Made by a program: the position numbers and the translations under genes
NCBI GenBank assembly: GCA_010909165.1
Contig: MU008196.1
Span: forward strand, 310,001 to 374,000
Reading direction: 5' to 3'
DNA length: 64,000 bases
Source: Anthoceros angustus
Taxonomy: Eukaryota; Plantae; Anthocerotophyta
The notes under the pieces: model-generated
Told to the model about the DNA's origin: nothing
Database searches by the model: none
The model's input: only the letters and a program-made list of their open reading frames with translations
Shown: piece after piece, positions 11,214-41,915 of the stretch
Numbering within the stretch: position 1 is the first letter of the stretch
Layout: each line of letters begins with the position of its first letter

Positions 11214-12329
11214 CGAGGCTTCCCCTCACACTTGTCCACACTATCACTTCGTCGTTGGGTTTAGGTCCCATGAGACTTGTGTGGGGAGGCGGATCCGGGG
11301 CTAGATGCACCCTCGCCACACTTATAATCGTTTAAATGCGTTGGGTTTCGTCCCATGAGACTTGTGGAGCAGTCGAATCTTGAGAAATCCGTCACTACGC
11401 ACTACACACTACCTCGGCCTTCTAAACAAGCAAGGCGCCCTCTCACGCTCCCTCTACAGCTCGCCGCCCGTCTTGCCCGTAAACTCACCTCAACCTAGCG
11501 ACACCACACAATTGCAGTTCGTCTTAACAAGGTGTCTATCACGGGCGCCAGGGGACCCCACGACCCACACGCAACCGTCCCTACTCCTAAGACACTCTTC
11601 TCCACACGGGGCACTTTTGGGATTCGTCCCTTAGGCTCTGGCCTTAGTTTTCCTACACTCTAATCCTCCTCACAACTCTCTCAATCAACAACGCCTCTTC
11701 TTCTCTACTCATCTACCTTCCTTCCTCCACAATCTCCTACTCTAACACCAATTCTGGCTCATTAATTCCAACTCGCCCTTCACGGCTGCACAGGGTCCGT
11801 CAGGAAGTGAGTTCTTCCTTGGGCGGTTGCTATGTGGTTTTTGCAGACAGCGAGAACCTCCGAGTCTTTCCTGCAGTCTACCCTCAAGCCGAGAGTTCCT
11901 TGAGCATCGCCACACACTCAAAGCAAAACAATTCCACGCAACCATTCACAAGGGGCGGCTAGCGGCGCACAAAGAGCAAGCCCTCCGCACTCCGACGCGT
12001 TCTCCCTCTCTACGGACCTGCGTTGGCTTGCGGTAGGCCGAAATTCCTGCACACAAAGTGAAGGACTCGGGAGGATGGGAGGCGCAAGACACGATAATTT
12101 TACTTCACAAGCTCCCTCCTTTTATAGGAGGTCCTCACATCTGACCTCCCACAGGCGCCTCACAGCCTTGCCTCACTCCTTATTTTAGTGTATCCTATTG
12201 TCGGACTTTAAGTTCGACATCCAAGCATCTTGGGTAAAATTCTATTCTAGCAAATTCACCTATGTGAGCCTTAATGGCTCTGTCAACATTCCTATCTAGC
12301 TAGTCAACACACTCTCTGGTGACAAGCAT

Positions 12330-21300: not shown

Positions 21301-21556
21301 TGAAGGAATAATTATTGTTTATGTGTTGACTCATGCTAGGGTTATGTTACCTTAGTTTAGTTAACCTATCGATGTGTAAACTAGGTCTAGTCACCTAGTA
21401 CCCTTTCGGTAGGGTTGTGACTCTTACGAGTAGACGTAACACTTGGTATCTTAATTAGGTTGTTTAAAGCATAAGCAAGTTACTCTTTTATTTGATCTTT
21501 CAATTCAATCGATAATGTAATTGTGTTTTATTAATTCAATTCACATAAAATCTTCA
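21301..21556 (+). repeat. Copia-2 3' LTR
   Basis: TGAAGG...TCTTCA, preceded by the PPT and followed by the TSD. Confidence 0.93.
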
Positions 21557-22513
21557 AATTCAAGGTTGGTGTAAGACCAATGTCGCCCATACACCCACTC
21601 TAACTGAATATTCTCCTCTGCTGCCCAAGGTCGAAAGTCTGAAAGGTCTCTAGAGGATAGCTGGCCGCATAGCACGTAAATAATGGCATGTCAAATTTCC
21701 ACCTCCGGTCCGATCCTCCGCCTTAGACCTCTTGCCCGCTCTGCGCCACCTCCTTGGTGGACGCTCCTTCCTTGGCTACCTCCTTGCCCTTGGTCATGGT
21801 AGGCTTGGTCATGGCCTCCTTGGTTAGTACTTGCACGAAATTGAAGAAAGTGATGCCTCACACTCGCAAAAACGCCAGACTTCTATCCTTGCAAACGTTT
21901 TCTCCTCCTCGTGATTTGCTCGCTCACTCAAAGGTCCTTTCCCTTGCTCTCCCCAATCCTTACACCTTGGCGTCCCAAAACCCCGATTTCTCCTGAAAGC
22001 TCACCAAAATTCCCCACGGGCTCTTACCTTGACAATTTAGGAGCCCTTCCTTCACGGTTTCCTAGCAATCTTGCCACGCTCCACCCTCCTAGGCACCCTC
22101 ACGAGCTTGGCAAGTGTTGGGTTGCGCCCCAACCTTCTTCTCCCTTCTCTTCTTCCTCAACTTCCTCCTGCTCTTTCTCTTGGGCGCCTGGCGGACTTCC
22201 ACCTCCTCGCTGAGCTCACGCCTGTGGAACGCAAAAGTTTGGGCAACCAGCCCAAAAGAGCCCGAAGACGAACAAGTTTGATTTTTTGGCTAAGACGATT
22301 GAAGAGGCATGCCGAAAACTTTTGAATCTTGAAAGCGGTTGTAGGATATTGTTAGGAAGGCAAAAGGATATCCCGGGAAGAAGCAGTCGAATGGCCCAGG
22401 CGAGCGGGAGGCGCGAAGGGCGGTAGGCGGACCGCCGTAAGCCACACTACAGTGGTGGCGGACTGGTGGTAGGCCAGATCTCGGACTAAAGGAAATTAGA
22501 ATAGGGATATCCA

Positions 22514-22521
22514 CTATATAT
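22514..22521 (+). promoter_or_regulatory. Candidate TATA box for the U3 ORF (also 36075-36082; equivalent TATA-like motifs near the start of LTRs C and G)
   Basis: CTATATAT about 290 bp from the LTR start, upstream of the ORF, in an AT-rich patch conserved between copies. Confidence 0.5.
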
Positions 22522-22628
22522 GCTCATCAATAAAGGATAAATATATTAGCAAGAGATTAATTAGGCAGGATAGGAAAATAGGTATTATAGATCGATTAGG
22601 ATTTTGTGAATGATGCACAAATCTAGGG

Positions 22629-25600
22629 TTGTGTGGCCGCCTGGCACATCCAAAGGCAAAGTGCGCTTTGGCGGTAACTTCCTTTCGAGCTAAGGCGAAC
22701 TCACTTCCCAAGAGACGAGGGCGGAGCGCAAAGAGCCGGAGGAGAAGGCCCATTGCGCGTCGCGACAACGAGAGGAAGGCGGCGAAGGAGAAGACCCTAG
22801 CGGGAAAGGAGAAAAGGAGGCGGCAAGCACGAGCGCTCGCAGAAGCTCTTGAATCGGAAAGAGACACATTGAAGGAGGCACGCGAGCGCGAGTTGGGGCG
22901 GAAGGCAAGGTGAAGGAGGCGAGAGTAGAAGGAGGAAAATCACCACACCGCGGCGGAGAAGAAATCAAGGGCGGCGGCCGAGGCTCAAGAGGCTAACGTG
23001 TGCTTGTGCCTCGGTCGAGTCGCTGCGACGAGAAAAGGAGTGTTTGGAGGTGAAGCTTGAGCACAACTGAAATTGGGAAGTAATCCTCTTTGCGAGGAGT
23101 AAGGAAGGTGCCATGCCTCGAGTGGAAAGGCAAGGGAAAGGAGCCGCTGCAAGGGCTCCTCCTCGAGAAGGAAAGGAAAGAAAAGCGGTGCCGGGAGAGG
23201 TGAACTTGTGATGCCCCAATTCACTTGCTTTGCGGGCAGCAACCCCGAGATTTGGTTGATTTTGGTGGAGGAGGAGAACATCCAACTAGGATGGGTGTAT
23301 GGCCGCCAATGGGCCTACACCAATTTGGAATTGATTGAGGAGTGTTACATCAACCTCCATCAATCGGGCGCCCTGCGCTCTAGGAAGGAATGCTAGAACG
23401 GATCCCATTGTTGGACCGTGAGAAGTATTCGACAGTGTATGGAAGACCGGAGGAAGAAAGCTCGGTGCTCTCCTCGAAAGGTTGAATGGAGGAAGAGGAC
23501 ATCCGACATCCCGCAGAGTTCCTTGACATGATGGATGGAGGAGTGAAGGCCCACGCCAAGAATGGCTGGAAGACCGAGAGCATCAAGGAGTCAAGTGGAG
23601 GCTCTTCGCAAAGATTGTGCTGGGGTTGGTAAATTACCAACGCACTCTTATTTCAAAGACCAACTTCCTCCAATTTTGTGGAAGATTTCCATGGGAGCCA
23701 AGCCGGATTGGGGACTATCATGTATGAAGCGTACATACACCATCGAGAGAAGCTCCTCAAGCCAAATTCGGTGGATGAGGAAGGACCAAGGCCTGCTATC
23801 TTAGCACCTATTTGGTGCATTTATGGGAAACCGAGGGACTCCTCACAAGCAAGGAGCTTGAAGATGCATGGCATCCCTTTGAGGTCATCCATCTCCAGTG
23901 AGGTTGGAAAGGCCTTTGCCTTTGCATTGCGCGAGGCGGTGGGAGGTCGACCTCCACAAAATGCTAGAGGCAAGAGGAGAAGGTTCGAGGCAACAAAGTT
24001 GCCGAGTGGGAATCCTTTCCCCAGCAAGCAAGGGAAGAAGAGAGCGGCCGAAGGCCGGATGGTGGTCTATGAGAGAAGGACCACGGGAGGGGTGACCCAG
24101 AGTGGGGAGTCCCCACCATCTCCTTTGTGCCTACGAGAGAGGCACCCGGCAGACTACCCGGTGGCGGTCTACCCAAGGGGGTGGGCAGCCTACCGTGGTA
24201 GGCGTCACCTACCATGGTAGGGCGAGACTACCAGTGGGGGAGCAGCCTACGCAGCACGCCCTCGTGGAAGGGAAGGAAGGAGAAACAGCAGCGCATGGGC
24301 GCCGAAACCATCTCCGCTGGGTGGGAGGCGGATGGAGCGTGAAGGGACCCGCGCGATGGCCCGAGAGGTGCGGAGAGCTGGAGATTTCCAGCAAGAAGAA
24401 AGAAGGGGTGGAATTAGGACCCCTAGGAGAATCTTGGGTGCTTGTGAAGCACTCACCGTGTGGATTTGAAGGGGCTAGAGAAACAGCCACCCTTGTGGGC
24501 ATGCCAAGAAGAAAGAAGGGGTGGAATTAGGACCCCTAGGAGAATTCTTTGGGTGCTTGTGAAGCACTCACCGTGTGGATTTGAAGGGGCTAGAGCGCCT
24601 TCCTTGTGGGCATGTCAAGAAGTGAAATCTCAAGACATGGCCGGGAAGGGGACCAAATGGCAATTGGAGGCCATGGAGTCCGACGAGAAGGCAGCCAAGG
24701 AAAAGGTCAGGAGAAGCTCCAGCGACCTTATGGATCAGTGGCGGAGAAGGTCTTGGAGGGAGGTTGGCTCAAACCAAGAAAGAGCCATCCGAGCAACCAC
24801 CCAACGAGACTCATGGAGAGGCAGGAGCATTTTGCCCAATTAGAGCAAGAGCGAAAGGGCAAAACAGAGGCTCTCGGAAGGGAGAAGGTAGCGGTCCAAG
24901 AATGGACGCAAGCAGTGATGGCTACAAGCCATCCATCCGGACATGAAGGAAGAGTTGAGAAGAGCCCGGTTTAGTTTGGAGAAGGTCTTGGAGGGAGGTT
25001 GTCAAGCGAAGAAAGAGCCATCCGAGCAACCAACGAGATTCATGGAGAAAAGGCGGAGGAGCATTTTGCCCAATTAGAGCAAGAGCGAAGGGCAAAACAG
25101 AGGCTCTCGGAAGGAGAAGGTAGCGGTCCAAAGAATGGACGCCAGAACAGTGATGGCTACAAGCCATCCATCCGGACATGAAGGAAGAGTTGAGAAGAGC
25201 CGGTTTAGTTTGGAAGAGCGCCAGCTGGAAATTCAAAACCAGAACTGAGGCGCGCGAGAAAGATGCTTGGCAAGCGGAGGGAAGGGCTTGCTCAATAGAG
25301 GACTTGGAAGGAAAAGGTCTCGGGAGGAGTACCACAAGAAAGTGGTACATAGAATCTTGGTAGTAAGGAAGCGAGGTTTTGGGCGATTATGCCCTTCAGC
25401 AAAATTGGCCAGCCTAAAGGAAGCAAGGGAGGAGAATGTGACCTCCATGTCAAGGTGGGGAATTGACCACCTCAAGGGACGCCTACAAAGGTAGGTGTGA
25501 AGATGGAGAGTGGCCACGGAGATTGATGATCTCCAAATGCAATATCATAGCTTGGGGCTCACCTCCACAATAGAATTTTGAAGGCCAACAATGAGATCTT

Positions 25601-26300
25601 GCGTTTGGCCAAGAGGAGGACATTGGGTCCTCATGATGATGATGAAGAAGGAGTGCGGCCGAGGCCTCCGATTTTGATGAGGCCATCGAAATGGACTCCG
25701 AGGAACTGAGGAGTCGAGGTCGGAGGCGAAGGGAGCGCCAAAGGTAGAAGGTGGCGCAGAGCAAGGAGGGGAAAGCCCACCCTCCTGGGGGGTCAACCTA
25801 CCACGGTGGGTGACCACCTACCACGTAGTCCGCGGACTACCGTGGTGGCCACACGCCGGTAGTCCCGGACTACCATGGTAGGTAGGCAGTGCCCGCTGAG
25901 GGGAGTCGGGGCCCGCGAGGCTGGGATGAAGGAGGGGAAAGCCCACCTCCGGGGTCAACCTACCACGGTGGGTGACCACCTACCACGTAGTCCGCGACTA
26001 CCGTGGTAGACCACACGCCAGTCGCCGGACTACCGGTAGTGCCGTGGGCGGAGGAGTCCAACGCAAGAAGGCCGAGGATGAAGGAGCCGGGGGGTCCGGT
26101 AGTATACCCCCTGGAGGAGCAGTTGGGGTGGTGGGAGAGACAACCCCACCGGAGGAGACTAAGGACGGGGTCCGACCCGTCGAGGAAGGGGGAGGGGTGA
26201 GAAGTTCCCTCGCCCCACGGATAAGGGAGGAGCCAGGGGGAGGAGACCAAGAAGGCCCGGAGAGTTACATGGTGGCGGTGGGAAGATTCTTTGCTCTATG
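22629..26300 (+). pseudogene. U3-encoded ORF in the Gypsy-A 5' LTR (roughly 1000 aa, many frameshifts): basic N-terminus, conserved central domain, coiled coil
   Basis: MPQFTCFAGSNP, ENIQLGWVYGRQWAYTNLELIEECYINL, WRLFAKIVLGLVNYQR, PDWGTIMYEAY and AHLHNRILKANNEILRLAKRRTLGPHDDD recovered across frames. Boundaries approximate. Confidence 0.75.
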
Positions 26301-26858
26301 ATAGGTATGGACAAACCAACAGGAAGAGCAAAGATCTCACCCGAGACATCACCGATGAGGAAGAAGAAGGAGATAGGTACGACTACCATGGTAGGTAGTC
26401 ACCTACCCGAGTCTGCCCGGACTACCGCGTAGGGTCGACAGGGCGGCGCGGAGTGGAAAAAGGCGCCTAGGTGCGCGAGGATGGAAGATACAGACTTTAG
26501 GCGCCGCCCCGCGGAGATGGAGGAAGGGGCAGATGGTACTTGCCCCACACATTAGGAAGCGACAAGATCCGGGAAGGGACAGAGCAAAAGGAGGGCGAGG
26601 AGCCAATCCCCAAGGGACATGTCACCACCCCAGATAAGACTAAGAATGGTCAATGACCATAAATGAGCTTTGGAACGGAAGGATAGGTGGTGTACGACAT
26701 CCTTCAAGGATGGTCTTAGGTGAAGTTACTAGAATAGAATTTACCAAGGATCGACAATAGACTTAGGTGCCGACATTAAAGTCTGTAGGAAATAATAGAA
26801 AATTGGAAAAGGTGACTGCAGAGGGTCACCCAAGGGAGGTTGTATGTGGAAGGCCTCC

Positions 26859-26864
26859 TATAAG
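26859..26864 (+). promoter_or_regulatory. Candidate main LTR TATA box (also 39806-39811; LTR-B about 12118-12125 minus; LTR-G about 47908-47913 minus)
   Basis: TATAAG/TATAAAAG located 845-945 bp from the LTR 3' end in all three families. Confidence 0.6.
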
Positions 26865-27667
26865 AGGAGGAGGATTTCACAAAGTAAAGTATCATGTCTT
26901 GCGCTTCCACGCTCGAGTCCTTTGCCATTACAGAGGAATTTCGTGGTGTGAGCCAACACAGTCGTAGAGAGGAAGTCGCGGTGGTCGGAGTGCTTGGTGG
27001 AGGACTTGCTCGCAAGTGCCTAAACGAGTTGCTCCCTTGTGAATGGTTCTGTGAAATTGCTTTGCTTTGGGTGTGTGGCAAATGCCCAGAACTCTCGGCT
27101 TGAGGGTAGACTACAGGAAAGACTCCGGAGGTTCTCATTGTCTGTGTCAAACTCATAGCAACCGCCCAAGGAAGAACTTGCTGGTGGAGGCGGACCCAGG
27201 CGGTTGTCAGTAAGGCGAAGAAACCAAGAAGCCCGAGGTTAGAACTAGGAGGAAGAGGATGAGGAGATGAGAAGATGAGTAGAGGATTAGAGGTGTAGGT
27301 GTTAGTGGAAGGCCACAGGCGAGCCTAAGGGACGAATCCCAAACTGCAAGTAAAGAGCTCCCGAGTGGAGAAGTGGTCTTAGAAGTAGGGACGAAATCGC
27401 GGTGTGAACTGGGGTCCCGGCGCCCGTGGTAGGCTCTTCTTCGGCGGACCCGCAATTGTGTTGTGTCGTTGTAGGTCAAGTTTGGTCTTAGAAGTAGGGA
27501 CGAAATCGCGTGTGAACTGGGGTCCCGGCGCCGTGGTAGGCTCCTTCCAGCGGACCCAATTGTTTTGTGTCGTTGTGGGTCGAGGTTGGCGATTTTCAAG
27601 CGGCAAGTGGTGCACGTGAGAGGGAGAGTAGGTGCCTTGCTTGGAGAGTTGTGGAAGGTAGCGATTG

Positions 27668-28966
27668 GTGACCACAAGGCCTCGAACTTTCACACAAGTC
27701 TCATGGGACGAAACCCAACGTCTGGGCGAGTGGGATAAGTGTGGCCGCTATAGTGGGAGGACCTGGGAGTGCCCGGATTCTCCCTACCACATTTTTGGCC
27801 GCGGGACTTGTTGTTGAAAGGTTGAAGTTTTGTGGTTTCCATCGCTAGTAGCATGCTTGAGAAGGGATGAGTCGACCATGTGTGAGAAGGAATTTCACGC
27901 CTTTAGTTGTCATAGGGGTGACTGGTTGAGACACTAAACGGGGTGTGATTTGCTTCCTTCTTAACACCTGTGGGTTGGAGGACATGAGGATGGTTGCAGA
28001 TGTCGGATAGGGGTCGATCTCGGGAGATACACGCGGAAGGTCACCACCGCCACCGCGAGATTTACGAGCTTACGAAGAAACCGCTAAGGGAAGAGACCGC
28101 TACGCCACTCGTGGGCGGGAGGAAGTAGAGACACGGCGCGGAGGAAGTCGCCGTGACAAGGCGGCGGAGGTGCGAACGGCAGGGGGAAAAAGGAAGAAGA
28201 GGCGAGATCACCCGAGAGGAAGGAGGTCGAGAAGAGAAGGTGTCCGTGGCGAGGAAGGGCGCTCCTCCGAGGTTAACCGCCGCGAACGCCCGCGACGCTT
28301 TGCTTCTCAAAGCGGTGACCACAAGGCCTCGAACTTTCACACAAGTCTCATGGGACGAAACCCAACGAGCGACGGGATAAGTGTGGCTATAGTGGGAGGA
28401 CCTGGGAGTGCCCGGATTCTCCCTACCACATTTTTGGCGCGCTGTCGGGACTTGTTGAAAGGTTGAAGTTTTGTGGTTTCCATCGCTAGGTCAGCATGCT
28501 TGAGAAGGGACCGAGGTCGACCATGTGTTGAGAAGGAAGATCACACCTTTAGTTGTCATAGGGGTGAATGGTTGAGACACTAGAGGGTGTGGTTTCCTTC
28601 TTAACACCGTGGGTTGGAGGACATGAGGATGGTTGCGGATGTCGATAGGGGTCGATCTCGGGAGATACACGCGAAGGTCACCACCGCCACCGCGAGATTT
28701 ACGAGCCACGAAGAAACCGCTAAGGGAAGAGACACCGCCGCCACTCGGAGGAAGTAGAGACACGAGACGGAGGAAGTCGCCGTGAAAGGCGACGGAGGTG
28801 CGGAACGATGCAGGGGAGAAGGAGGAGGAAGAGGCGAGATCACCGGCGAGAGAGGAAGGAGGTCGAGAAGAGAAGCCGTGGATTTAGGAAGGGTCGCGCC
28901 TCCGAGCACGAGTTACCGCTCACACCGCCGCGAACGCCCGCGACGCTTTGCTTCTCAAAGCGGTGA
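27668..28966 (+). repeat. Tandem duplication (about 650 bp) of LTR end, PBS and 5' leader
   Basis: 27668-28315 repeated as 28316-28966, junction at the shared GGTGAC. Confidence 0.8.
28431..28450 (+). other. Gypsy-A primer-binding site, tRNA-Asp-like (degenerate duplicate at 27792-27806)
   Basis: TTTTTGGCGCGCTGTCGGGA after the LTR end. Related copies give consensus TGGCGCCGTTGCCGGGGA, complementary to the plant tRNA-Asp 3' end (the Athila-type PBS). Confidence 0.65.
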
Positions 28967-29099
28967 CACCACCTCATCTTCCTGAAAGGCGGTGGCGACG
29001 AGGTCGCCGAGCGGGAGTTTCGTGCTTGGTCGGAGGATTTGGCGGAACGACTCGATCGAATCGCTGGTCGATTGATCTTTGGGACGAACTAGAGGGAGG

Positions 29100-31450
29100 T
29101 CGCTACTCCTCGAAGATTTTCGTGCTCAAGGATCCCGATTTGTTTCCTACCCCGGAGAGGAGTGTTGGTCCAGCGTGGACACTCCGAGCAACATGAGTGG
29201 AGTTGGTGGAGGAGGAGGACCAACTTCATAGTCGCCAGAATACGCCAAATTCGGCGAGAAGAAAAGGGAGATGATGCGGAGGTGTTCGTCAGGACTTTCG
29301 AGCACGTCTCCCACGCAAATTTAGAGGATGGAGTCGCCGAGCGCGCATCTTTCCGGACTGAGGGCATGCCCAATGGTATGGTCGCACATATAATTCAAGC
29401 CGATTGGGAAGCTCTTAAGGCCTTCTTGAATCGGTTCCGAGGGCTCACGCACACCACACTTTGGCCAAGTTGAGAACCCTCCAAGGAAGAAACGAGAGTC
29501 GTTGTTCGATTATGTGGAGAGGTTTTATGGATATCCGGATCGGGTTCAAATGTGCACCCGAGAGGCCGGAGATCCACCCACTGGTACTCACAAGAACAAG
29601 CGTTGGATTGGTTTGTGAGTGGCTTGTCACGAAAATGGAGGTACACTGCAGCGGGCGAAGGCGTTGGCGGGGGCCTCCGCTTAGCCGAGGAATGGGAGTC
29701 CCGGGAGAAGGAGGAAGAAGAGGCGAGTCATAAGAAGAGGAAAGGATCGAGGAGATCTCCTCGTCTTCTACCTCCTCCAGCTCGTCGCCTCTTCCTCATC
29801 GAAGTGAGGAGCGGAACTCAAGAAAGCTCCACATCGGATGAGGAATCGGAGAAGGCCTACGAACGAATGAGGAAGGACCGAGAAGGTCAAAACGACAAGA
29901 GGAGGCGGGGCGCGCATTGGAGAAGGAGAGGAAAGGGAAGACGGTCCGTCGGATGGAGAAGGGAGAAACGTCTGCCGGGGAGGAGGATTATTGGACAAGT
30001 GGAGGCTTTGACCAAGATTGACCGAGTTGGAGGTCAAGGCGTGAAGAATCAAGCTCCACGAAGATCTCCTTCACCGAGGCTTGGTGTATTGCTCGATCGT
30101 CATCAAACGGGACACACCAACCGAATGTATTGCACGCGACACGCGGTAAATCATGTGGAAACCGTATGCCGGGATTATTGGTATGTGGACGGGCGTACGG
30201 TACAAGCGGTCACTCGAAGTCGACCACCTCAATCAATGAGAGCGACTTACCAGCCGACTGCACCAGTCCCCTCAAGGTATGGCTCACGTCCGACATCGCC
30301 GGGACAATGGAGACCAGATCCGTCACAGCGACCGATGGCAATTCCACAGGGGTGCTGTTACAATTGCGGAGCCCCAGGACACTACTCGAACGAATGCCCA
30401 GAACCACGGAAGCAAGTAGGTTATGTACCCTTTTGCCAGGTATGTAAGGAATTGGGACATAAAATGGGGGACCCCAGATGCACGGGGGGCGAGTGACACC
30501 AGCCAGGGGTCGTTACCAGCTGGGCGGAGAGGCCGACAACACTCCGCATCACCGTGACCACAACACCGGTGTTGAAGGTGGAGGCGAGTATGATTCCCTC
30601 GAGGGATCGATGTGACAGACGCCGTGGAAGAGGAAGGGAAGACGGTCCGTCGGATGGAGAAGGGAGAAACGTCAGGAGGAGGGATTGCGGACAAGTGGAG
30701 GCTTTGACCAAGATTGACCGAGTTGGAGGTCAAGGCGTGAAGAATCAAGCTCCACGAAGATCTCCTTCGCCAGGGCGCTTGGTGTATTGCTCAATTTGTC
30801 ATCAAACGGGACACACCAACCGAATGTATTCGCACCGCACACGCGTAAATCATGTGGAAACCGTATGCCGGAGATTATTGGTATGGACGAGCACAGTGCA
30901 AGTCACCGGCCACCACCTCAATCAATGAGCGACTTACCAACCGACACACCCTCAAGGTATGGCTCACGTCCGACATCGCCAGACAATGGAGACCGATCCA
31001 TCGCACCGATGGCAATTCCAGGTGTTGTTACAATTGCGGAGCCCGTGACACTACTCGAATGCCCGTAACCACGGAAGCAAGTAGGTTATGTACCCTTTTG
31101 CTGGAATTGGGACATAAAATGGGGACCCCAGATGCACGGGTGACGCGAGTGACACCAGCGACACTGTGAGTCGACGACGAGCCAGCGGAAGAGGAGGCAC
31201 GACCCAACACCGAAACCGAATCACCACAACACCGGTGTTGAAGGTGGAGGCGGAGTACGATTCTCGAGGGATCCAGACGCCGTGATCGTGGAAGAGGATG
31301 AGGAGAAATAAGCGGATGAAAGGTTGATGGTGGCCGGTGTAACCACATCGGGCCGCGAGAAAAGGCGGATCGGAAAACGGCGATGAGGAAAGGAAGCGGA
31401 GGAAGGTGAGGATGACTCACCATGGCCTCGGGCCCCGTTCAGCGCCCGAG
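29100..31450 (+). pseudogene. Gypsy-A gag (frameshifted; about 690-bp internal duplication)
   Basis: DDAEVFVRTFEHVSHANLED, DWEALKAFLNRF, knuckles CYNCGAPGHYSNEC and CQVCKELGHKMGDPRC. Confidence 0.85.
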
Positions 31451-31849
31451 CAGAAGCCAGGAGGCGGGCACTACCGGCAGCACCCCAGATAGACCCGCAG
31501 ACTACCTCGGCGGGCGGGGCGAAGGACCAAAGGAGGAGGAACGAACGCTTCCTCCCGACATTAGTCGAAGTAGCGGCAATGCGGAAGATGAATTAAACAG
31601 CTCACCCGACAGAAGGGTCGCAGAGCCGAATTGATCCGGGTATGGGAACCCACCGATAGGAGGGTCATGGAATCGAAACTTTACCAATAAGGTCGGAGTC
31701 GACCGGTGTGCAAGCGGGAGGAAACTTTGTCGGATAAAATCTCCGCCGTTACTTGACCGCGAATTTGTGGTCAGTCTGAGACAGTTGCTTGCGGTAAGTC
31801 CAAGATCCCGCAAAATTGTGAAGGAGGCGATCAGGGGAATCCCTGAAGC

Positions 31850-34800
31850 AGTAGGAGGGAGAAATCGGCGGAGGTAAATGTGGTCGAACTCGTTGATTTA
31901 GGGGCACCCGAGATTGAGGTTGAGATTGCGGGGTGTTTGGTGCCCGACGTGCCATTAGATTCGGGATCAGGAGTCAACTTGATGACGGAGGAGACGGCTC
32001 ATCAACTCGGATTCACTGAGTTTCACCCGGCCCGAGTATTTTTACGGATGGCCGACCAGACAAGGAGAAAGCCACTGGGGGTGCTGAGGAACGTGCCCAC
32101 TGTAATTGGGGGACTCACCTTCCATCTTACCTACATTGTGATGCGACCGGTTTCAGATTTAGGCTATAAGGTTTTGATAGGTAGGCCTTGGTTGTATGGT
32201 ACTGCGTGTGTTTTTGATTTTGGTCGTAGTGGCATCACCTTCAAGTCCGAGAACGGACTGCGGCGATTGCTTTTGTGTCATGGAGTAAGGCTCCTTATGA
32301 GGGGAGTGCAACCCATCACGGGGTACACCTCGTAGCACGGGGTAAGCTCCTCGGGCTCGAGCATATCGGGGTCCCTCTGAGGTCGCCAAATAAAGAGTGA
32401 TTTGGTGTATACTGCTTACATATAGAGGAAGCCATAGAGGAGTCTGAGGATGAGGCCCATAGAGAAGGAGTAGCCTTTTGGAAGGGCAGGGCTTATGAGC
32501 GAGACTTTCCGGAAGAGGGATCCGGAACCAGTATAGGCAGCAGTCCAGAAGGAACATATGTAGATCCCGATGCGGTAGAAGACCTAGAGTTAGAACCTAG
32601 CAAGGTAGTCAAGATTTCTAAGTACCTAGGCGGATAGAAGATGAGTTTCAGAGGGTCCTTAGAGAATATGTTGATGTGTTTGCCTTCAAGATTACCGACA
32701 TGACAGATACCGGAAGAACGGGATACATCGAATAGATTTGAAGGAGGGCAAGACTCACGGATCAAGCAATACTGAATCCCAAGTATTCCATGGTTGTTAA
32801 GGATCATCGACCAATACTTGGAGGTGGGTGATTTATCCGGTGCTCACCGGTGAGTGGGTCGCCCCATCGTGATTGTACCAAAGCGGCAGGAAAGGTTCGG
32901 GTGTGTCAGAGAAACTCAACGAGGCAACGAAGAAGGATCATCACCCTTTACCTTTCATGGACAAATACACGATGGTGGCCATGTGGATTCTTGGATGGTA
33001 TTCGGTACAATCAAATTTCGCTAAGGAGGATCAGGACAAAACAACGTTCACGACGGATTGGGGAACTTATGCCTATTCGAAGCTCCCTTTCGGCTTGTGC
33101 AATGCCCCGGCCACTTTCCAGCGGGTAGTGAACGCGATCTTCCGAGACTTTCTGAGGAAGTTCATGGAGGTATTCCTAGATGATTTCTGTGTATTTGGGA
33201 GAAGGAACTTGCATTTAGACCATTTGAGGCAATGCTTTAAATGCAGAGTCGAACATGAAACTTCATCCGTGAAGTGTTATTTTGGCATGACGGAGGGCAT
33301 TCTATTAGCACATCGAGTTTCACGAGGATTGCGGTAGATAAAGAGAAGGTAGCTGATACGAGATGGACGCACCCGCAAAGGCGCAGCTTTTGTAGGGCTA
33401 GTGGGGTATTACAGAGGTTCATCAAGGATTTCGCCAAGAAGGCGGCCTTGTTGACACAATTAACCAAAAGGATACACCCTTCGAATGGACGACGCGACAG
33501 AGGCTTTCGCAGTTGAAGGACTTGGTGAGCGCACCAACTTTACAACCGCCGGATTGGGAAGCCGTTTCATGTATACGTGGATGTGTCCGCCCGCTATTGG
33601 GACCGTCTTCGAAGATGAGAAGAAACGGATCATCCGATTTTCTATGCGGTAGACAACTCACGGATCGAAAAGAACTACTCAACCACGGAGCGGGAGGGTC
33701 TTGGTATCATTTACTCGTAAGAAGTTTAGACACTATCCGCTTGCAAGGTGACGCTTCATGTCATTTTGCGTTGAAGTATCTTGTCAACAAGCGATTTGTC
33801 GGAAGGATCGGATGGGTATTCTGCAAGAGTTTGACTATGACGAGAAGGAGGAAGCAACATCGAATGCTGATTTCATTTCTCAAGACCGGAGAGCGACTTG
33901 AGCCACGGATGATCGATTTCGAGGAGTTGGTTACCATGACCCAAGTCAAGGGAAGGAGGTGAGCATGTTGTCGAAGGCCTAAGAATTGATCAGCAAACCT
34001 TGCCCGAGAGGCCAAGAGCAAGAAGGAGCGTTGTGCAGAAAAAGCAGCAGGACAATTTAAATCCGAGGGGAGAGGATGGCGCCAGCATGGGCGCAAGGAG
34101 GAGGCTGAATGCTCCTCAAGGGTGAGCAGCGGAGGCTGCAAGTGGAGGCCACACGTTGGCAAAAGGAAGCAGAGCGGACATGAGGCAGTTTTGAAGCGAG
34201 GATGGAAGCCGAGGCGCCATGAGGGCGAGGAGGAGACGCCCAGTGGGCAGAGGCGAGGAAGGAGATCCCATGACAAGTTTAGAAAATTGCGGAGGAGTTG
34301 CAGATGTGGGCAATCCTCAAAATGACCATGGAGGTGCAACAAGTCGAGGAGGTCGCCATGGAGCACGAGATGGACCCAGACACGGTTGGGCGGCAGGACG
34401 AAATCAACAATGAAGGAAGAACATGCGACGACGTTGAGGAACGCAAGATGGGGAAGGGAAGCCGTGGCCGAGGATGGATACACGCCATCGGAGCCATTAA
34501 CGAACGTCCTAGGAGGAGGAGACACACCGGAAGGAGAAGATTAGACCGCGAGGGGCGTTCATGCCCGAGGTATTTGTTGAGCGGTGAAGTACGTAAATTC
34601 TCGGAGCATGGCATCATGCCGGATGGGTTGTCAAGGAAGGCGGTCTTTCTCCATAAAGCCCCCTCATCGGAAGGTGTCCCAAACTTGGGCGACGAAAGAT
34701 CCGACTGTCTCGGCTAAGGAGGCCTCGTCACGAGGCGTTACATGCGTAAGAGGCGGTGGACACTATTCGTGCAGTGACCGTTAAGAAGATTTTGAATGCG

Positions 34801-35768
34801 GGTTTTGGTGGCTACGATGCAAAAGGATGTGTGGGAGTTCACCCGAGGTGTGATGCGTGTCGAGGGTTGGGCGGCCTACGTTGTCGACACAATGGCCTCT
34901 TACCTACATCCCGCGCTCCCTGGAGAAGTGGGGAATCGATTTCAGAGGGGCCGATCAAACCACCAACGCAATGGACGAGGAAGCGGTACATTTTGGTGGC
35001 TACGGATTATTGTACAAAGATGGTGGAAGCAAGCAAGGAAGGACGACGCTGCGTAGCCAAGTTTCTATTCGAGAACATCATAACGTATGGATGTCCTTTA
35101 GAGTTGGTCACCGGGGACACATTTCCTCAACTCGGTCGTTGAATCACTGACCACCTACTTCAACATTCGGCATCGAAAGACGACCCCCTACAACCCCAAA
35201 GCGAATGGATTAACGGAGAAGACGAATGGGTTGCTACGCACAATCCTCACCAAGGTGACTGTGACACACATGTATGATTGGGATGCTAAGTTGCATTCGG
35301 CATTGTGGGCTTACAGGACCGGAAAAGGTAACCACCAAAAGACCCTTATTATCTAACGATGGCATGTCACCGTGATGCCGTGGAATTTGAAGTACCCACC
35401 TCTGAATCATGGAGGACGAGATGACCGTAGAGGATAGCGTAGTTAGACTAGAATCATTCATAGAGCAGGAGAACGTAGGGAGGATGCTTTAGAAGAAACC
35501 AATGATTCGTGAACTCGTAAAAGGCGGCATGATGGGAGGTTGAGGAAGCAAGAGGCTATCGTGGACGGGATTTGGTTCTTCTATATGATAGTCGGTACCT
35601 AGACTTTCCAGGAAGCTTAGGCTAAGGTGGATGGGACCTTACGAGGTGGTCGCAGATACGAGAATGGATCCTGCAACTCCGGGTCTGGGCGGCATCACCG
35701 AGTCAATGGGTGGAAGGTCAAGAAGTACCTCCACCGAGTACTGTTGTTTGCGAGGACGCAAACAGTGA
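31850..35768 (+). pseudogene. Gypsy-A pol: protease, RT, RNase H, integrase
   Basis: LDSGSGVNLM...VLIGRPWL (PR); KTTFTTDWGTYAYSKLPFGLCNAPATFQR and VFLDDF (RT); LQEFD (RH); EKWGIDF and GPY/F region (INT). Confidence 0.92.
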
Positions 35769-35777
35769 GGTGGGGAG
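35767..35777 (+). other. Gypsy-A polypurine tract
   Basis: GAGGTGGGGAG-TA-TGTGG; the same junction GAGGAGGGGAG-TA-TGTGG occurs in element B' at 52372. Confidence 0.8.
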
Positions 35778-35779
35778 TA

Positions 35780-38700
35780 TGTGGAACGAAAGTTTGGGCA
35801 ACCAGCCCAAAAAGAAAACGAACAAGTTTGATTTTTTTGGCTAAGACGATTGAAGAGGAGCATGCGAAATTTTCAATCTTGAAGCTGGAGTTGTAGGATA
35901 TTGTTAGGAAGGCGAAAAGGATATCCCGGGGGAAAACGGTCATGACCCAGGCGAGCGGAGGCGGCAAAAAGGCGGTAGGGCAGACTACGCCGTGGTCGCC
36001 ACCACCACGAGTGGGGCGGACTACCGTGGTAGTACAGATCTCGGCTAAAGGAAATTAGAATAGGGGGATATCCACTATATATGCTCATCAATAGGGAATA
36101 AATATATTAGCGAGATTAATTAGGCGATAGGAAAATAGGTATTATAGATTAGGATTTTGGAATGATGAACAATCTAGGGTTGTGTGGCCGTGGCATCCAA
36201 AGGCAAAGTGCGGTTTGGGCGCGCCAACTTCCTTCGAGCTAAGCGAACTCACCCAAGAGGCGGGGCGAGAGCTGGAGCGCAAGGTGAAGGAGGAAGGCGC
36301 CGAGGCGCCCGCGAGCAGAGGAAGGCGGAGGAAAAGAGACCCCTAGCGGGAAAGGAATGCTAGAGGCAAGAGGAGAAGAAATCAAGGGAAGAGACACATT
36401 GAAGGAGCGCGCGAGGCGAGTTGGAGGCCGGCGCAAGTGAAGGGAGGCGAGTAGAAGGAGGTCGCGACCACTGGTGGCTGGAAGAAGAAATCAAGGGAAG
36501 GCGGCGGGGGCTCAAGAGCTAACGTGTGCTCAGTGGGTGAGAGAAGGAGTGTTTGGAGGTGAAGCTTGAGCACCAATTGGGAAGTAATCCTCTTTGCTAA
36601 GCGAGGAGTAAGGAAGGTGCCATGCCTCGAGTGGGGAAAGGCAAGGGAAGGAGCCGCTGCAAGGGCTCTCCTCGCGAGAGGAAAGGAAAGAAGGAGGGCG
36701 CCCGGGGGAGGTGAACTTGTGATGCCCCAATTCACTTGCTTTGCTCAACCCCGAGATTTGGTTGATTTTCGGGGTGAGGAGGACATCCAACTAGGATGGG
36801 TGTATGGCCGCCAATGGGCCTACACCAATTTGGAATTGATTGAGGAGTGTTACATCAACCTCCATCAATCGAGCCGCCCTGCCGCAGGAAAGGAATGCTA
36901 GCGGATCCCATTGTGTAGAAGCCGGTGTATGGAAGACCGGAGGAAGCTCGGAATTGCTCTCCTCGAAAGGTCGAATGGGGAAGAGGACATCGACATCCCG
37001 CAGAGTTCCTTGACATGATGGATGGAGGAGTGAAGGCCCACGCCAAGAATGGGTGGAAGACCGAGAGCATCAAGGAGGAGTGGAGGCTCTTCGCAAAGAT
37101 TGTGCTGGGGTTGGTAAATTACCAACGCACTCTTATTTCAACCAACTTCCTCCAATTTTGTGGAAGATTTCCATGGGAGCCAAGCCGGATTGGGGACTAT
37201 CATGTATGAAGCGTACATCCACCATCGAGAAGCTCCTCAAGCCAAATTCGTGGATGAGGAAGGCCAAGGCCATGCTATCTTAGCACCTATTTGGTGCATT
37301 TATGGGAAACCGAGGGACTCCTCACAAGCAAGGAGCTTGAAGATGCATGGCATCCCTTTGAGGTCATCCATCTCCACCGAGGTTGGAAAGGCCTTTGCCT
37401 TTTGCATTGCGAAGACGGTGGGAGGTCGACCTCCACAAAATGCTAGAGCAAGAGGAGAAGGTTCGAGGCAACAAAGTTGCGGAGTGGGAATCCTTTCCTG
37501 GGAAGCAAGCAAGGAAGAGGAGCAAGAAGCGGCCGAGAAGGCCGATGGTGGTCTATGAGAGAAGGACCACAGGAGGGGTGACCCAGGGAGGGGGAGTCCC
37601 CACCATCTCCTTTGTGCCTACGAGAGGCACCGACAGACTACCTGAGGAGGCGGTCTACCCAAGGGGTGGGCACCGTGGTAGGCGTCGGCCTACCATGGTA
37701 GGTAGGCGGACTACCGTGGTAGGCGGACTACCGTGGCGGGCACCCCACGCCGCAAAACCCTGGGGCGGGGAAGGAAAAGCAGCGCCGCGGCGGCGCCCAC
37801 CACCATCTCCGCTGGGTGGGAGGCGGATGGAGCGACAGTGAAGGGACCGCGCCCATGGCCCGAGAGGTGCGAGAGATTTCCAGAAGAAAGAAGGGGTGGA
37901 ATTAGGACCCCTAGGAGAATTCTGGTGCTTGTGAAGCACTCAGTGTGGATTTGAAGGCTAGCAGCCTCCTTGTGGGCATGCCAAGAAGTGAAATCTCAAG
38001 ACATGGCCGGGAAGGCAGGACCTAAATGGCAATTGGAGGCCATGGAGTCCGAGCAAGCGGAAAAGGTGGAGAAGCTCCAAGCGACCTTATGGATCGCGGA
38101 GAAGGTCTTGAGGGAGGTTGGCTCAAGAAGAAAGAGCCATCCGAGCAACCAGGACTCATGGAGGCGGAAGGAGCATTTTGCCCAATTAGAGCAAGAGCGA
38201 AAGGCAAAAAGAGGCTCTCGGAAGGAGAAGGTAGCGTCCAAATGGACGCTGAGCAGTGATGGCTACGCAAGCCATCAAAATCCGGACATGAAGGAAGAGT
38301 TGAGAAGGACCGTTTAGTTTGGAAGAGAAGCGCCGAGCTGGAAATTCAAAACCAGAACTCAGGAGAGAGAGAAAGATGCTTGGCAAGCGGAGAGGAAGGG
38401 CTTGCTCAATAGAGGACTTGGAAGGAAAAGGTCTCCGAGGAGGAGCCACAAGAAGGTGGTGCATAGAATCTTGGTAGTAAGGAAGCGAGGTTTTGGATTA
38501 TGCCCTTGAGCAAAATTGGCCCTAAAGGAAGCAAGGAGGAGAATGTGACCCTCCATGTCAAGGTGGGGAATTGACCACCTCAAGGGACGCCTACAAAGGT
38601 AGGTGTGAAGATGGAGAGTGGCCCACGAGATTGATGATCTCCAAATGCAATATCATAGCTTGGGGCTCACCTCCACAATAGAATTTTGAAGGCCAACAAT

Positions 38701-40750
38701 GAGATCTTGCGTTTGGCCAAGAGGAGGACATTGGGTCCTCATGATGATGACAGAAGGAGCTGCAAGTGCAGCCAGGCCTCCGATTTTGATGAGGCCATCG
38801 GTGAAATGGACTCGAGGAATCGAGGAGTCGGGAGGCGAAGGAGCCGTGGCGCCAAAGGTAGAAGGTGGCGCGAGAGCAAGGAGGGGAAAGCCCACCTCCG
38901 GGGTCAACCTACCACGGTGGGTGACCACCTACCACGGTAGTCCGCCGGACTACGTGGTGAGCTTCTGTGCCGTGATGCGCGGGGTGGGCAGTGCCGTGGG
39001 CGTGAGGCTGAGAGTCGGGCCGAGGCTGAAGAGCCGGGGTCCGGTGGTATACCCCTGGAGGCTGGGGTGGTGGGAGACAACCCCACCGGAGGAGACTAAG
39101 GGGGTCCAGGAGGTCGAGGAAGGGGAGGGGTGAGAAGTTCCCTCGCCACCGGATAAGGGAGGAGCCGGGGCCGAGGAGGAGACCAACGCAAGAAGGCCCG
39201 GAGAGTTAGGCATCGGTGGGCGATGGGGATGAAGATTCTTTAAAATGCTATGGTAGGTATGGACAAACCAAACAGCAAGAGCAAAAAGATCTCACCCGAA
39301 ACCTCACACCGAGAGGAAGGAGAAGGTGCGGACTACCATGGTAGTCACTACCGATGATCGCGGACTACGCGGTAGGGTGATGAAGCGCGACAGGGCGGAG
39401 AAAAGGCGCCTAGGTGCGGAGAGCGCGGTGATGGAAGATGGCAGACTTTAGGCGCCGCCGAGATGGAGGAAGGGCAGATGGTACTTGCCCACACATTAGG
39501 AAGGCGGATCCGGGAAGGGCAAGAGCAAAAGGAGGCGAGGGAGCCAATCCCAAGGGACATGTCACCACCCAAGATAAGACTAAGAATGGTCAATGACCAT
39601 AAATGAGCTTGGGGAAGAGGATGAGGAAGGAGGTGTGGTGACATCCTTCAAGGATGGTCTTAGGTGAAGTTACTAGAATAGAATTTACCAAGGATCGGAC
39701 AATAGACTTAGGTGCCGGACATTAAATGGCGGTAGGAAATAATAGAAAATTGGAAAAGGTGACTGCAGAGGGTCACCCAAGGGAGGTTGTATGTGGAAGG
39801 CCTCCTATAAGAGGAGGAGGATTTCACAAAGTAAAGTATCATGTCTTGCGCCCACTCATCGAGTCCTTTGCCATTACAGAGGAATTTCGTCTGTGAGCCA
39901 ACACAGTGTAGAGAGGAAGTCGCGGTGGTCGGAGTGCTTGGTGGAGGACTTGCTCACGCAAGTGCCTAAACGAGTTGCTCCCTTGTGAATGGTTCTTTGT
40001 GAAATTGCTTTGCTTTGGGTGTGTGGCAAATGCCCAGAACTCTCGGCTTGAGGGTAGACTACGGGGAAAGACTCCTGGAGGTTCTCTCGTGTCAAACTCA
40101 TAGCAACCGCCCAAGGAAGAACTTGTGGAGGCGGACCCAGTGCCGTAAGGGGCAGTCGAAACCGATGGCCGGCGAGGTTAGACTAGGAGGAAGAGGATGA
40201 GGAGATGAGAAGATGAGTAGAGGATTAGAGGTGTAGGTGTTAGTGGAAGGCCACAGGCGAGCCTAAGGGCCGAATCCCAAATGCAAGTAAAGGCGCTCCA
40301 CAGGTGGAGAAGTTGGTCTTAAGTAGGGACGAAATCGCGGTGTGAACGGGGGTCCACAGGCGCCGTGGTAGGCTCCTTCTGAGGCGGGACACAATTGTGT
40401 TGTGTCGTTGTAGGTCGAGTTTGGTCTTAAGTAGGGACGAAATCGCGGTGTGAACGGGGGTCCACAGGCGCCGTGGTAGGCTCCTTCTGAGGCGGGACCC
40501 GCATTGTTTTGTGTCGTTGTGGGTCGAGGTTGGCGATTTTCGAGCGTGCAAGTGGTGCACTGTGAGAGGGAGAGTAGTGGGCGCCTTGCTTGTTGAGAAG
40601 GTGAGAGTTGGGAAGGTAGCGATTGGTGACCTGAGGCCTCGAACTTTCACACAAGTCTCATGGGGGCCGAAACCCAGCGTCTGACGGCGATTGGGATAAG
40701 TGTGGCGCTATAGTGGGAGGACACGGGAGTGCCCAGTTCTCCCTACCACA
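35780..40750 (+). repeat. Gypsy-A 3' LTR (4971 bp)
   Basis: Begins TGTGGAACG two bases after the purine tract GAGGTGGGGAG that follows the integrase end; ends CCCTACCACA plus TSD. Confidence 0.9.
36190..39250 (+). pseudogene. U3-encoded ORF in the Gypsy-A 3' LTR (second copy)
   Basis: Same motifs as the 5' LTR copy (ORFs 36566, 36925, 37160, 37970, 38686). Boundaries approximate. Confidence 0.75.
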
Positions 40751-41915
40751 ACGCCTTCTTCTTCACCTTGCCACAAGACACGGCCTTGCACCTTCCCAAG
40801 CACCAACTCACTGTTATGATTTGAAGCGAAATTCTCCTCCAAGTTCCTCACGAGTCCTTACACTTGTGTCTCCGATTTGGGAGCTTTTCCTTCACAATTT
40901 CCTCGCAATCACGCCCCACCTTCCTATCGCTCCCGCAAAGTTAGGGAGGTGTGGTTTGCCCTGCACCTCGTTTCCCTTCCTCTTTCTCTTTCTTCTGCAC
41001 CTCCTCTTGGCGTCCTGCTGCCTTTTCTCCTCGGTTGCCCAACTTGCGCCCTTCCTCTTCAGCTTAGCATGGGCGTGTGTACGGCGCGTTGCTGTATGGG
41101 GGCCTTGGGAAGCTTGAGATGTGGTGGCGCCTTCCTGCAGTGAGGTTGTCTTGTTGAGTTTTTGAGATATGGCCTCCTGCAGGCACCTGCAGCCACTTTT
41201 ATAAGTCACCCAAGGGTTAGAAAAGTAACTACCATTCTATCCTGCCCTTGGATGTGTGCCACGTGGCCCCTTTCTCACCGTTGATGTTAGTTTCCTAATT
41301 CCCTTATACTAAAATACCATTTTTCCCTATTTTCCTAATTTCTATTTGTTGGAAATTAGCCTCTAATTTCTTAATTACCTATCTTGGCCTATTTATCTAG
41401 TCCACTAAAAGACCCTATATATAGCAAGCCTATCCTGCCTAAAACATAAGCTACCTTCCTTAGCAACCTATCTCCTACCGTGGTAGGACATCCTACCATG
41501 GTAGGCGTTTTCCTTTCTCCTACCACGGTAGGAGTTACTCCTCTGTGGTAGGATACCTTCCTACCCTCTCCTACCATGGTAGGAACTATTCCCTACGGTA
41601 GGTGATCAAAACACTAGCGGGGTCATTCTCCTACGTGGTAGGATCTCTCCTACCCTCGTCTACCATGGTAGGAGTTTCTCTCGGTGGTAGGACACCTCCT
41701 ACCACTCATGTAGGTTACCTTTTCTCCTCACAGGTCGTTTTGACCCGTTTCTTTTCCTGCATATCCTCTTTGCCTTCCGACATGGTCCTACAACTCCGCT
41801 CAAAAGAGCAAAAATTTCCTTGCATATCTTCACCAAACCATTTCTAGCAAAAGAGTGTGGGCCCGTTTCAAAACGAACTCATTTAAGCTAGTTGCCCAAA
41901 CTTTTGCGTTCCACA

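What the first reader, a model, noticed from the sequence alone, without database searches (positions are those of the whole stretch)
22223..40750. Gypsy element whose giant (5-5.6 kb) LTRs each encode a large protein in U3
Seen: the terminal repeats run TGTGG...CCACA over 5569 and 4971 bp. They are bounded by a perfect 5-bp TSD (ACGCC), with the PPT directly before the 3' copy and the PBS directly after the 5' copy. Each contains a roughly 1000-codon (frameshifted) ORF. There is one TATA-like motif about 290 bp from the LTR start and a second about 930 bp from the LTR end, so the ORF falls in U3. Homologous ORFs lie inside LTR-B (5.45 kb net) and, more distantly, solo LTR-G. Protein blocks are conserved despite DNA divergence (A: ENIQLGWVYGRQWAYTNLELIEEC, AHLHNRILKANNEILRLAKRRTLGPHDDD; B: ENIQLEWVYGRHWSYTNLELI-EC, AHLHNKVLKATNELLRLAERRMLGPHDDD). 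Known: plant Athila/Tat/Ogre extra ORFs normally lie between LTR and gag or between pol and PPT; coding U3 regions are familiar from retroviruses (MMTV sag, HIV nef). Inference: this lineage moved its accessory gene into the LTR, so each insertion carries two copies and each solo LTR leaves a self-contained gene. The central domain loosely resembles the Athila-ORF2/'putative plant transposon protein' pattern (unverified).
Basis: partly seen in the sequence, partly recalled or inferred. Interest (0 to 1): 0.9.

Follow-up and report, generated by a model that had tools for sequence, protein, structure and literature searches.

The report
Retrotransposon carries gene inside its LTRs
A plant jumping gene (a Gypsy retrotransposon) has unusually long end repeats of about 5,000 bases that each hold an extra protein-coding gene kept under purifying selection, so every new copy and every leftover single repeat would carry this gene, whose protein likely helps regulate the element.

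Summary
The core observation holds. 22223-40750 is one Ty3/Gypsy insertion: 5569- and 4971-bp LTRs, perfect 5-bp target duplication, Athila-type PBS, PPT right after integrase. A short-read contig joins the two flanks without the element. Each LTR holds a broken frame of roughly 900-1250 codons. Against the relative in LTR-B it is codon-constrained on the sense strand (pN/pS 0.25-0.30, null 0.64-0.66, 0 of 200 shuffles; integrase 0.28; non-coding controls null-like), so it is a real gene. The breaks look mostly like assembly errors. One 4405-nt contig from a run guessed to be RNA spans the B gene between the two TATA boxes (weak hint).

Not confirmed: U3 placement (inferred), homology of LTR-G (not significant), and the Athila-ORF2 resemblance (no hit in Pfam, Atlas, PDB or 1.84 billion proteins, using fragments).

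New here: a 12-bp palindrome occurs 35 times (0.22 expected), 33 in these LTRs and none in gag-pol. RT groups with liverwort elements.

Verdict: new variant, an Athila-like accessory gene inside the LTR. Function inferred. This scan noted LTR-borne ORFs twice before, in other genomes (unchecked).

The parts
22218..22222 (+). left target-site duplication ACGCC
22223..27791 (+). 5' LTR of element A (5569 bp as assembled; includes local duplications absent from the 3' LTR)
22515..22522 (+). TATA box 1 (likely promoter of the LTR gene); AATAAA follows at 22529
   Evidence: function inferred
22610..26656 (+). LTR-borne accessory gene, 5' copy, frameshifted as assembled; start from first ATG behind TATA1, 3' end uncertain (conserved part ends about 25650)
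23190..23900 (+). conserved central domain (about 230 codons), codon-constrained against LTR-B
25450..25650 (+). conserved C-terminal block behind a charged, coiled-coil-like region
   Evidence: coil likeness only from sub-threshold hits
26859..26865 (+). TATA box 2 (likely promoter of the genomic RNA; the R/U5-like part behind it is conserved between A and B)
   Evidence: function inferred
27796..27810 (+). PBS, tRNA-Asp/Asn (Athila) type after a 4-T spacer; error-damaged, clearer in the duplicate at about 28435 and at 11056-11170
27792..35779 (+). internal region: gag zinc knuckle (about 30353), protease (about 31900-32250), RT/RH (about 32830-33880), integrase (34750-35730); two local duplications of about 650-700 bp
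35767..35779 (+). polypurine tract directly after integrase
35780..40750 (+). 3' LTR of element A (4971 bp); TATA1 36076, gene about 36162-39596, TATA2 39806
40751..40755 (+). right target-site duplication ACGCC
40751..41915 (-). LTR-B1, 5' part (same 22-nt terminus as A; TATA at 41423 and 41203; palindrome cluster 41475-41671); element A is inserted in it
21557..22222 (-). LTR-B1, middle part with the start of the conserved domain
11260..14907 (-). LTR-B1, 3' part: rest of the gene, TATA2 at 12126, R/U5-like end (far end scrambled, no TSD found)
51482..52372 (-). 5' part of the 3' LTR of a second element (B2), directly behind its own integrase and PPT; resumes with B-gene sequence at 45100-44549
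24190..26394 (.). clusters of the 12-bp palindrome CTACC(RY)GGTAG in the low-complexity linker and tail of the gene; matching clusters in A3', B1, B2 and near the LTR starts

Best explanation
This is a non-chromovirus, Athila-like Gypsy retrotransposon whose roughly 5-kb LTRs each contain a codon-constrained accessory gene, likely lying in U3 and likely encoding a nuclear regulator of the element. SHOWN: boundaries, gag-pol order, PPT directly behind integrase in two elements (A, B2), the gene in both LTRs of A and in LTR-B, purifying selection, palindrome clusters confined to LTR-type sequence. INFERRED step 1 (about 0.7): TATA2 starts the genomic RNA, and TATA1 starts a separate mRNA for the LTR gene that uses the LTR's own 3' end. 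The gene is then U3, is copied from the 3' end into both LTRs at each reverse transcription, and survives in solo LTRs. INFERRED step 2 (about 0.6): it arose when a forward accessory ORF behind pol, the usual Athila position, came to lie downstream of the PPT in use. INFERRED step 3 (about 0.4): the protein (helical core, basic motifs, coiled-coil-like stretch, no membrane segment) works in the nucleus in trans on the element. The most likely target is the palindrome arrays in its own LTRs, bound to keep them active (about 0.15 for this specific form).
For: Boundaries. Domains. Selection: mismatches between A and B are 3-periodic in all 5 coding comparisons (p 0.017, 0.037, 0.016, 0.0005, 0.001; the A5' and A3' comparisons are not independent) and in 0 of 3 controls (p 0.80, 0.68, 0.85). 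Sense pN/pS is 0.25 and 0.30 against null 0.64 and 0.66 (0 of 200 shuffles each), antisense 0.95 and 0.85, integrase positive control 0.28, three non-coding controls not below null (121, 159, 153 of 200). Breaks as errors: A5'/A3' differences are indel-dominated with no transition excess, unlike B1/B2 (56 transitions, 33 transversions). The X3 contig has 198 gaps against 106 other letters and 186 more letters over 2807 nt; 7 of the 12 indels shown are also in a second run, X2. Promoters. The X3 contig ends about 30 nt behind TATA2, and its other end projects to about 41406, just behind TATA1 of B (extrapolated). No hydrophobic 19-mer reaches 1.6 in 147 pieces. Palindrome: 35 matches against 0.22 expected. 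Nuclear localisation and an own promoter are reported for other plant aORFs (PMC7264820).
Against: No intact copy was seen; openness of the whole frame is not shown. X3 is only guessed to be RNA, contigs cannot show starts, ends or strand, and no silent-stretch or spliced-gene control was laid. The only AATAAA in the A LTRs is behind TATA1, which fits a short U3 with the gene in U5. No relic PPT or PBS above chance. No homolog or fold supports any function. The palindrome is the core of a 21-bp minisatellite, so copies are not independent, and tandem arrays are common in large non-chromoviruses (PMC6317226). Many copies lie inside the coding frame, unlike VANC targets (section headings of PMC5735166). 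Selection was measured on about 500 alignable nt only and shows constraint since A and B split, not present-day function.
Confidence: 0.7

Rival explanations
1. The gene is real and inside the LTR, but in R/U5: TATA1 starts the genomic RNA, U3 is only about 320 bp, and the gene is a 5' ORF (like ORF0 of Retrosat2 or the Ogre 5' ORF) that ended up ahead of the PBS. TATA2 would drive a subgenomic gag-pol RNA.
For: AATAAA and an AT-rich stretch directly behind TATA1 in both A LTRs, none near their 3' ends. 5' aORFs are known in plant Gypsy elements.
Against: DNA behind TATA2 is strongly conserved between A and B (394) while DNA behind TATA1 is barely above random (43 against 23-34). X3 contig break about 30 nt behind TATA2 (weak). 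It would need a minus strong-stop DNA of about 5 kb (textbook mechanism, recalled). No relic LTR-end/PBS inside the LTR.
Confidence: 0.18
2. The gene was functional in an ancestor but is now decayed cargo; the frameshifts are real and the palindrome arrays are neutral minisatellites.
For: Every copy in the window is broken. B1 is split by two insertions and B2 lacks the core domain. Selection is measured only between families.
Against: gag-pol is broken just as densely. The differences are error-like, and two independent runs agree against the window at shared indels. An uninterrupted B-type 4405-nt contig exists.
Confidence: 0.08
3. The true LTR is only the last 0.9 kb, and the 5-kb repeat is a tandem or nested arrangement of elements, or an assembly duplication.
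For: The assembly shows many local duplications.
Against: TSD around the 5-kb unit, empty-site contig, PPT before the 5-kb start in two elements and the same terminus in A, B1 and B2, no short repeat at the element's start.
Confidence: 0.03

Closest known systems
Athila clade of non-chromovirus Ty3/Gypsy (REXdb; PMC6317226 passages, section 9 and two supplements seen; ATHILAfinder preprint passages)
   Same: 5-bp TSD, tRNA-Asp/Asn-type PBS behind an AT-rich spacer, no chromodomain, large size, a forward extra ORF downstream of pol, LTRs up to about 5 kb known in non-chromoviruses.
   Different: The extra ORF lies downstream of the PPT, inside the LTR, and so is present twice. No match to ATHILA ORF-1 (PF03078) or Transposase_32 (PF20167) in fragments. 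RT groups with liverwort rows, apart from seed-plant rows.
Plant aORFs: Grande gene23, Retand/RIRE2 3' ORFs, Retrosat2 ORF0, Tekay 5' aORF (PMC7264820 parts 1-2 of 3; PMC3485330 passages; PMC11728184 passages)
   Same: Family-wide extra gene without homologs, under selection; own promoter and nuclear localisation reported for gene23; coiled-coil or SMC-like stretches.
   Different: All are described in the internal region, upstream of gag or between pol and the 3' LTR, not in the LTR.
Retroviral genes in U3
   Same: Coding sequence in the LTR, duplicated at each round of reverse transcription.
   Different: Those ORFs are about 200-320 codons, start outside or at the edge of the LTR and rely mainly on spliced RNA (recalled). 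Here the whole gene of about 1000 codons, with its own TATA box, is inside the LTR.
VANC anti-silencing proteins of VANDAL DNA transposons (PMC5735166 abstract and outline; PMC13547354 passages)
   Same: Functional analogy only: a TE-encoded accessory protein with a coiled coil, and short motifs amplified as tandem repeats in the same element.
   Different: No sequence or structural link shown; different TE class; the motif here lies partly in coding sequence; binding untested.
Phygy and Selgy (moss and Selaginella non-chromoviruses)
   Same: Non-chromovirus lineages of non-seed plants without aRH.
   Different: They have 4-bp TSDs, tRNA-Trp or tRNA-Ala PBS, 4.4-10 kb size and no eORF.

Membership tests
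Ty3/Gypsy LTR retrotransposon | LTRs with TG..CA, TSD, PBS, PPT, and domain order gag-PR-RT-RH-INT | tested here: met
Athila (REXdb) | 5-bp TSD | tested here: met
   ACGCC; clade table
Athila (REXdb) | PBS for tRNA-Asp/Asn behind a short AT-rich spacer | tested here: met
   five LTR-end/PBS junctions in the window, all with a 4-T spacer and indel-damaged versions of the published motif; compared by eye
Athila (REXdb) | no chromodomain | tested here: met
   integrase match runs to residue 1452 of 1454 of a Riccia relative and ends about 40 nt before the PPT
Athila (REXdb) | no additional RNase H (aRH), which separates it from Tat | tested here: inconclusive
   RH-INT linker about 575 nt longer than in Riccia relatives; no Pfam or tblastn hit there, but the region is frameshifted
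Athila (REXdb) | RT/RH/INT fall in the Athila clade of the reference tree | tested here: inconclusive
   quick 81-row tree without REXdb labels: window RT on a long branch among liverwort rows, split from seed-plant rows at support 99; reference FASTA could not be read
Athila (REXdb) | extra forward ORF in the internal region between pol and PPT | tested here: not met
   no room between integrase and PPT; the ORF is inside the LTR
ATHILA ORF-1 / Transposase_32 protein families | Pfam PF03078 or PF20167 match | tested here: inconclusive
   no hit to either in 101 stop-free pieces at E<=1; pieces hold only short in-frame stretches
Phygy / Selgy | 4-bp TSD, tRNA-Trp or tRNA-Ala PBS, compact size without eORF | tested here: not met
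Env-like aORF | transmembrane segment | tested here: not met
   no 19-residue window reached hydropathy 1.6 in 147 pieces; a segment split by a frameshift could be missed
VANC-like anti-silencing factor | sequence-specific binding to motifs in the own element and loss of methylation there | not testable with these tools
   candidate motif arrays exist; no binding or methylation data
Gene in U3 | genomic RNA starts downstream of the ORF and ends in R | tested here: inconclusive
   indirect only

The most novel reading that the evidence does not exclude
The LTR is a self-contained regulatory cassette. It encodes a sequence-specific DNA-binding protein of an undescribed family that recognises the 12-bp palindrome arrayed in the same LTR and counters host silencing, so every solo LTR remains a trans-activator of the whole family: a VANC-like system in an LTR retrotransposon.
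Probability: 0.13. Interest if true: 0.9.

Novelty: new variant of a known kind. Interest (0 to 1): 0.62.

Why it matters
Plant LTRs are treated as non-coding, and solo-LTR formation as the step that disarms an element. A selected gene of about 1000 codons wholly inside the LTR means each insertion carries two copies, and recombination to a solo LTR would leave a complete gene with its promoter. Annotation pipelines that cap LTR length or scan only the internal region would miss it. The function of plant retrotransposon accessory ORFs is an open question (PMC7264820; ATHILAfinder preprint). This case pairs such a gene with a specific candidate DNA motif, which makes one hypothesis directly testable by a binding assay.

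Tried and rejected
No whole genome is held, so no copy census or TSD survey was possible.

Homolog searches, all with fragments of about 100 aa that are only partly in frame. Word-seeded search, longer proteins only: 0 of 75 candidates and 0 of 7997 with a 3-row alignment. Full phmmer of 1.84 billion representatives gave 3 hits, all repeat proteins whose score is summed from 3-8 weak stretches; rejected. ESM Atlas: no usable hit for the core piece, and only scores of 0.84 or less for the C-terminal piece. PDB sequences: 0. Metagenome scans: 0 of 117 and 2 of 194, both 20-residue pattern-seeded matches among stops; rejected. Viral contigs: 0. These blanks are weak evidence.

AlphaFold of the core piece gave pLDDT 48.5 (three helices suggested), too low for a fold search, which was not run.

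A PPT-like sequence before TATA2 looked like a relic LTR start but was no better than chance (81-163 of 200 shuffles); rejected. G-ORF homology was not significant.

No run holding LTR A is on record as RNA (no RNA holder listed), and X3 covered A only in scraps; neither is evidence. Depth figures were not used as copy number. The LTR pair cannot be dated because the differences are error-like. The careful tree did not finish; the quick tree was used, with 32 of 112 qualifying rows dropped by keeping only 10 Tanacetum rows.

Literature: searches listed no paper whose title or abstract start describes an ORF inside a plant LTR. The library lacks most subscription papers, Steinbauerova 2011 was not read, and the REXdb element table and FASTA were too large to read; these may bear on novelty and on classification.
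Full report
OBSERVATION. Self-BLAST shows the two terminal repeats at 22223-27791 and 35780-40750, aligning end to end at 83-89% including gaps, flanked by ACGCC on both sides. Both begin TGTGG and end CCACA. A PBS follows the 5' copy after four T, and a polypurine tract precedes the 3' copy. The internal 8 kb encodes a zinc knuckle, protease, RT and integrase (Pfam, 57 pieces). tblastn with five long relatives gives the Gypsy order and puts the end of integrase about 40 nt before the PPT. In run X1 a 201-nt contig joins 22208 to 40754, which is the target sequence without the element. The target is itself an LTR (B1), so the contig may come from another B copy, but it fixes both ends. A second element on the minus strand (B2) repeats the layout: integrase, PPT, then an LTR with the same terminus at 52372. 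The first kilobase of the LTR has no counterpart near its end. The 5-kb unit is therefore the LTR.

QUALITY OF THE SEQUENCE. The two LTRs differ by 191 mismatches without transition excess (86:105) and 311 gap events, 165 of them single-base. B1 against B2 shows ordinary divergence (56:33). A 4405-nt contig of run X3 aligns to 12092-14898 with 106 other letters, 198 gaps and 186 more letters than the window. Seven of the 12 indels shown are also in run X2 (195 more rows not shown). Laying on element A listed over 600 indel places. gag-pol is as fragmented as the LTR gene. I read most breaks and the local duplications as assembly error (inference). The element cannot be dated, and no intact frame was seen.

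IS IT A GENE? Two tests did not assume a frame beforehand. First, mismatches between A and B inside gap-free blocks are spaced in multiples of three in 5 of 5 coding comparisons (p 0.0005-0.037) and 0 of 3 non-coding controls. Second, with the same best-frame rule for data and shuffles, sense pN/pS is 0.25 and 0.30 (dN/dS about 0.09 and 0.13) against null 0.64 and 0.66, 0 of 200 shuffles each. Antisense is 0.95 and 0.85, integrase gives 0.28, and the three controls match their nulls. The tests rest on 475-502 nt, and A5' and A3' are not independent. The gene is as constrained as integrase. From the first ATG about 95 nt behind TATA1 to the end of the conserved block is about 900-950 codons; with the low-complexity tail it may reach about 1250 (estimate). 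Layout as read from the frames: charged N-terminus, conserved core of about 230 residues (helical in a poor model), basic motifs, low-complexity linker, coiled-coil-like stretch, conserved C-terminal block, acidic tail; no membrane segment.

WHERE IN THE LTR? TATA boxes lie at +292/+296 and about 930-945 nt before the end in A, with counterparts in B. The 600 nt behind TATA2 are conserved between A and B (score 394); those behind TATA1 are barely (43; random 23-34). The X3 contig begins at 12092, about 30 nt behind TATA2 of B, and bridges the 6.6-kb insertion in B1. X3 is only guessed to be RNA and contigs cannot show transcript ends, so this is a weak hint of a transcription unit between the two promoters. 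Against U3: the only AATAAA in the A LTRs lies just behind TATA1. I put U3 at about 0.7 and R/U5 at about 0.2.

The palindrome CTACC(RY)GGTAG occurs 35 times with up to one mismatch, 0.22 expected. 33 of 35 lie in the A, B1 and B2 LTRs and 2 in a stretch of LTR fragments; none lie in gag-pol, the nested insertion, G or the host genes. They cluster near the LTR start, in the linker and in the tail, most often 21 bp apart. They are minisatellite units, so the count overstates independence. Their retention at several places in two families makes them candidate binding sites. VANC proteins bind motifs that amplify as tandem repeats (PMC5735166, abstract and outline); this is an analogy, not evidence.

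RELATIVES. The RT piece is closest to Riccia and Marchantia proteins (55-64% identity). In a quick tree it sits, on a long branch, among liverwort rows and apart from seed-plant rows (support 99). Host genes with small introns (ADP-glucose pyrophosphorylase and gelsolin domains) fit a land plant, probably a non-seed plant (inference). By the REXdb table, TSD, PBS type and lack of a chromodomain fit Athila and exclude Phygy and Selgy. Absence of aRH and the clade itself are not settled, so I call it Athila-like. The LTR protein found no credible relative in Pfam, two word-seeded searches, 1.84 billion representatives, the Atlas, PDB or metagenomes, all with short, partly out-of-frame fragments. 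Homology of G is at most a motif-level impression.

MECHANISM. Shown: a selected gene sits between the PPT-defined start and the PBS-defined end of the LTR. It follows from textbook reverse transcription that it is copied into both LTRs, and from solo-LTR recombination that one whole copy would stay behind. Inferred: TATA1 drives its mRNA and TATA2 the genomic RNA; it descends from a forward ORF behind pol that came to lie downstream of the active PPT (no relic found); the protein is a nuclear accessory factor acting on the element, most likely through the palindrome arrays.

COMPARISON AND NOVELTY. Reviews place plant aORFs in the internal region (PMC7264820; PMC11728184; PMC3485330). REXdb notes LTRs up to about 5 kb and eORFs up- or downstream of pol, without saying in the passages seen that any lie in LTRs. 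Seven searches listed no description of a plant LTR-internal gene, within a library that lacks most subscription papers; two REXdb supplements could not be read. Retroviral U3 genes are the known parallel (recalled). This scan noted LTR-borne ORFs in two other genomes (unchecked), which suggests that the arrangement recurs. Verdict: real, a new variant of the aORF-bearing Gypsy element; interest 0.62, up to 0.9 if the protein-palindrome link holds.

Noticed in passing
window 14908-21556: 6.6-kb insertion with 253-bp direct repeats (98% identical) splitting the core domain of the B1 gene; class not established (two pieces gave no Pfam hit). Element A is inserted in the same LTR, so these LTRs are nested in each other.
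   Followed up: partly
window 8328-8411 (-): A stretch of about 28 codons of the A-type core domain (75-83% identical) lies isolated in the 5' part of a Copia element (RVT_2 at 4216-4761); possibly a captured fragment.
   Followed up: no
window 45100-51480 (-): Element G interrupts the B2 LTR; it has a TATA 205 nt from its start and a broken ORF with a long coiled-coil-like piece (48686-49414). Homology to the A/B gene not significant. Contains 700- and 1780-bp local duplications.
   Followed up: partly
window 42573-43528: Three tandem units of about 330 bp, each an inverted LTR start fused to a piece of the R/U5-like region; a satellite derived from the LTR or an artefact.
   Followed up: no
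window 10155-11260: Inverted B-type LTR end facing B1, followed by three tandem 50-bp copies of the LTR-end/PBS junction.
   Followed up: no
window 33880-34750: RH-integrase linker about 575 nt longer than in Riccia relatives, purine-rich, no recognisable domain.
   Followed up: partly
window 57600-64000 (+): Host genes with small introns: ADP-glucose pyrophosphorylase (NTP_transferase and LbH_GLGC domains) and a gelsolin-repeat, villin-like gene (gene names recalled from the domains).
   Followed up: partly
window A versus B comparisons: Synonymous divergence of the LTR gene between A and B1 (dS about 2) is far above that of integrase between A and B2 (0.57) and of R/U5 blocks (about 0.3); may mean module exchange between families or that B1 and B2 differ in descent.
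   Followed up: no
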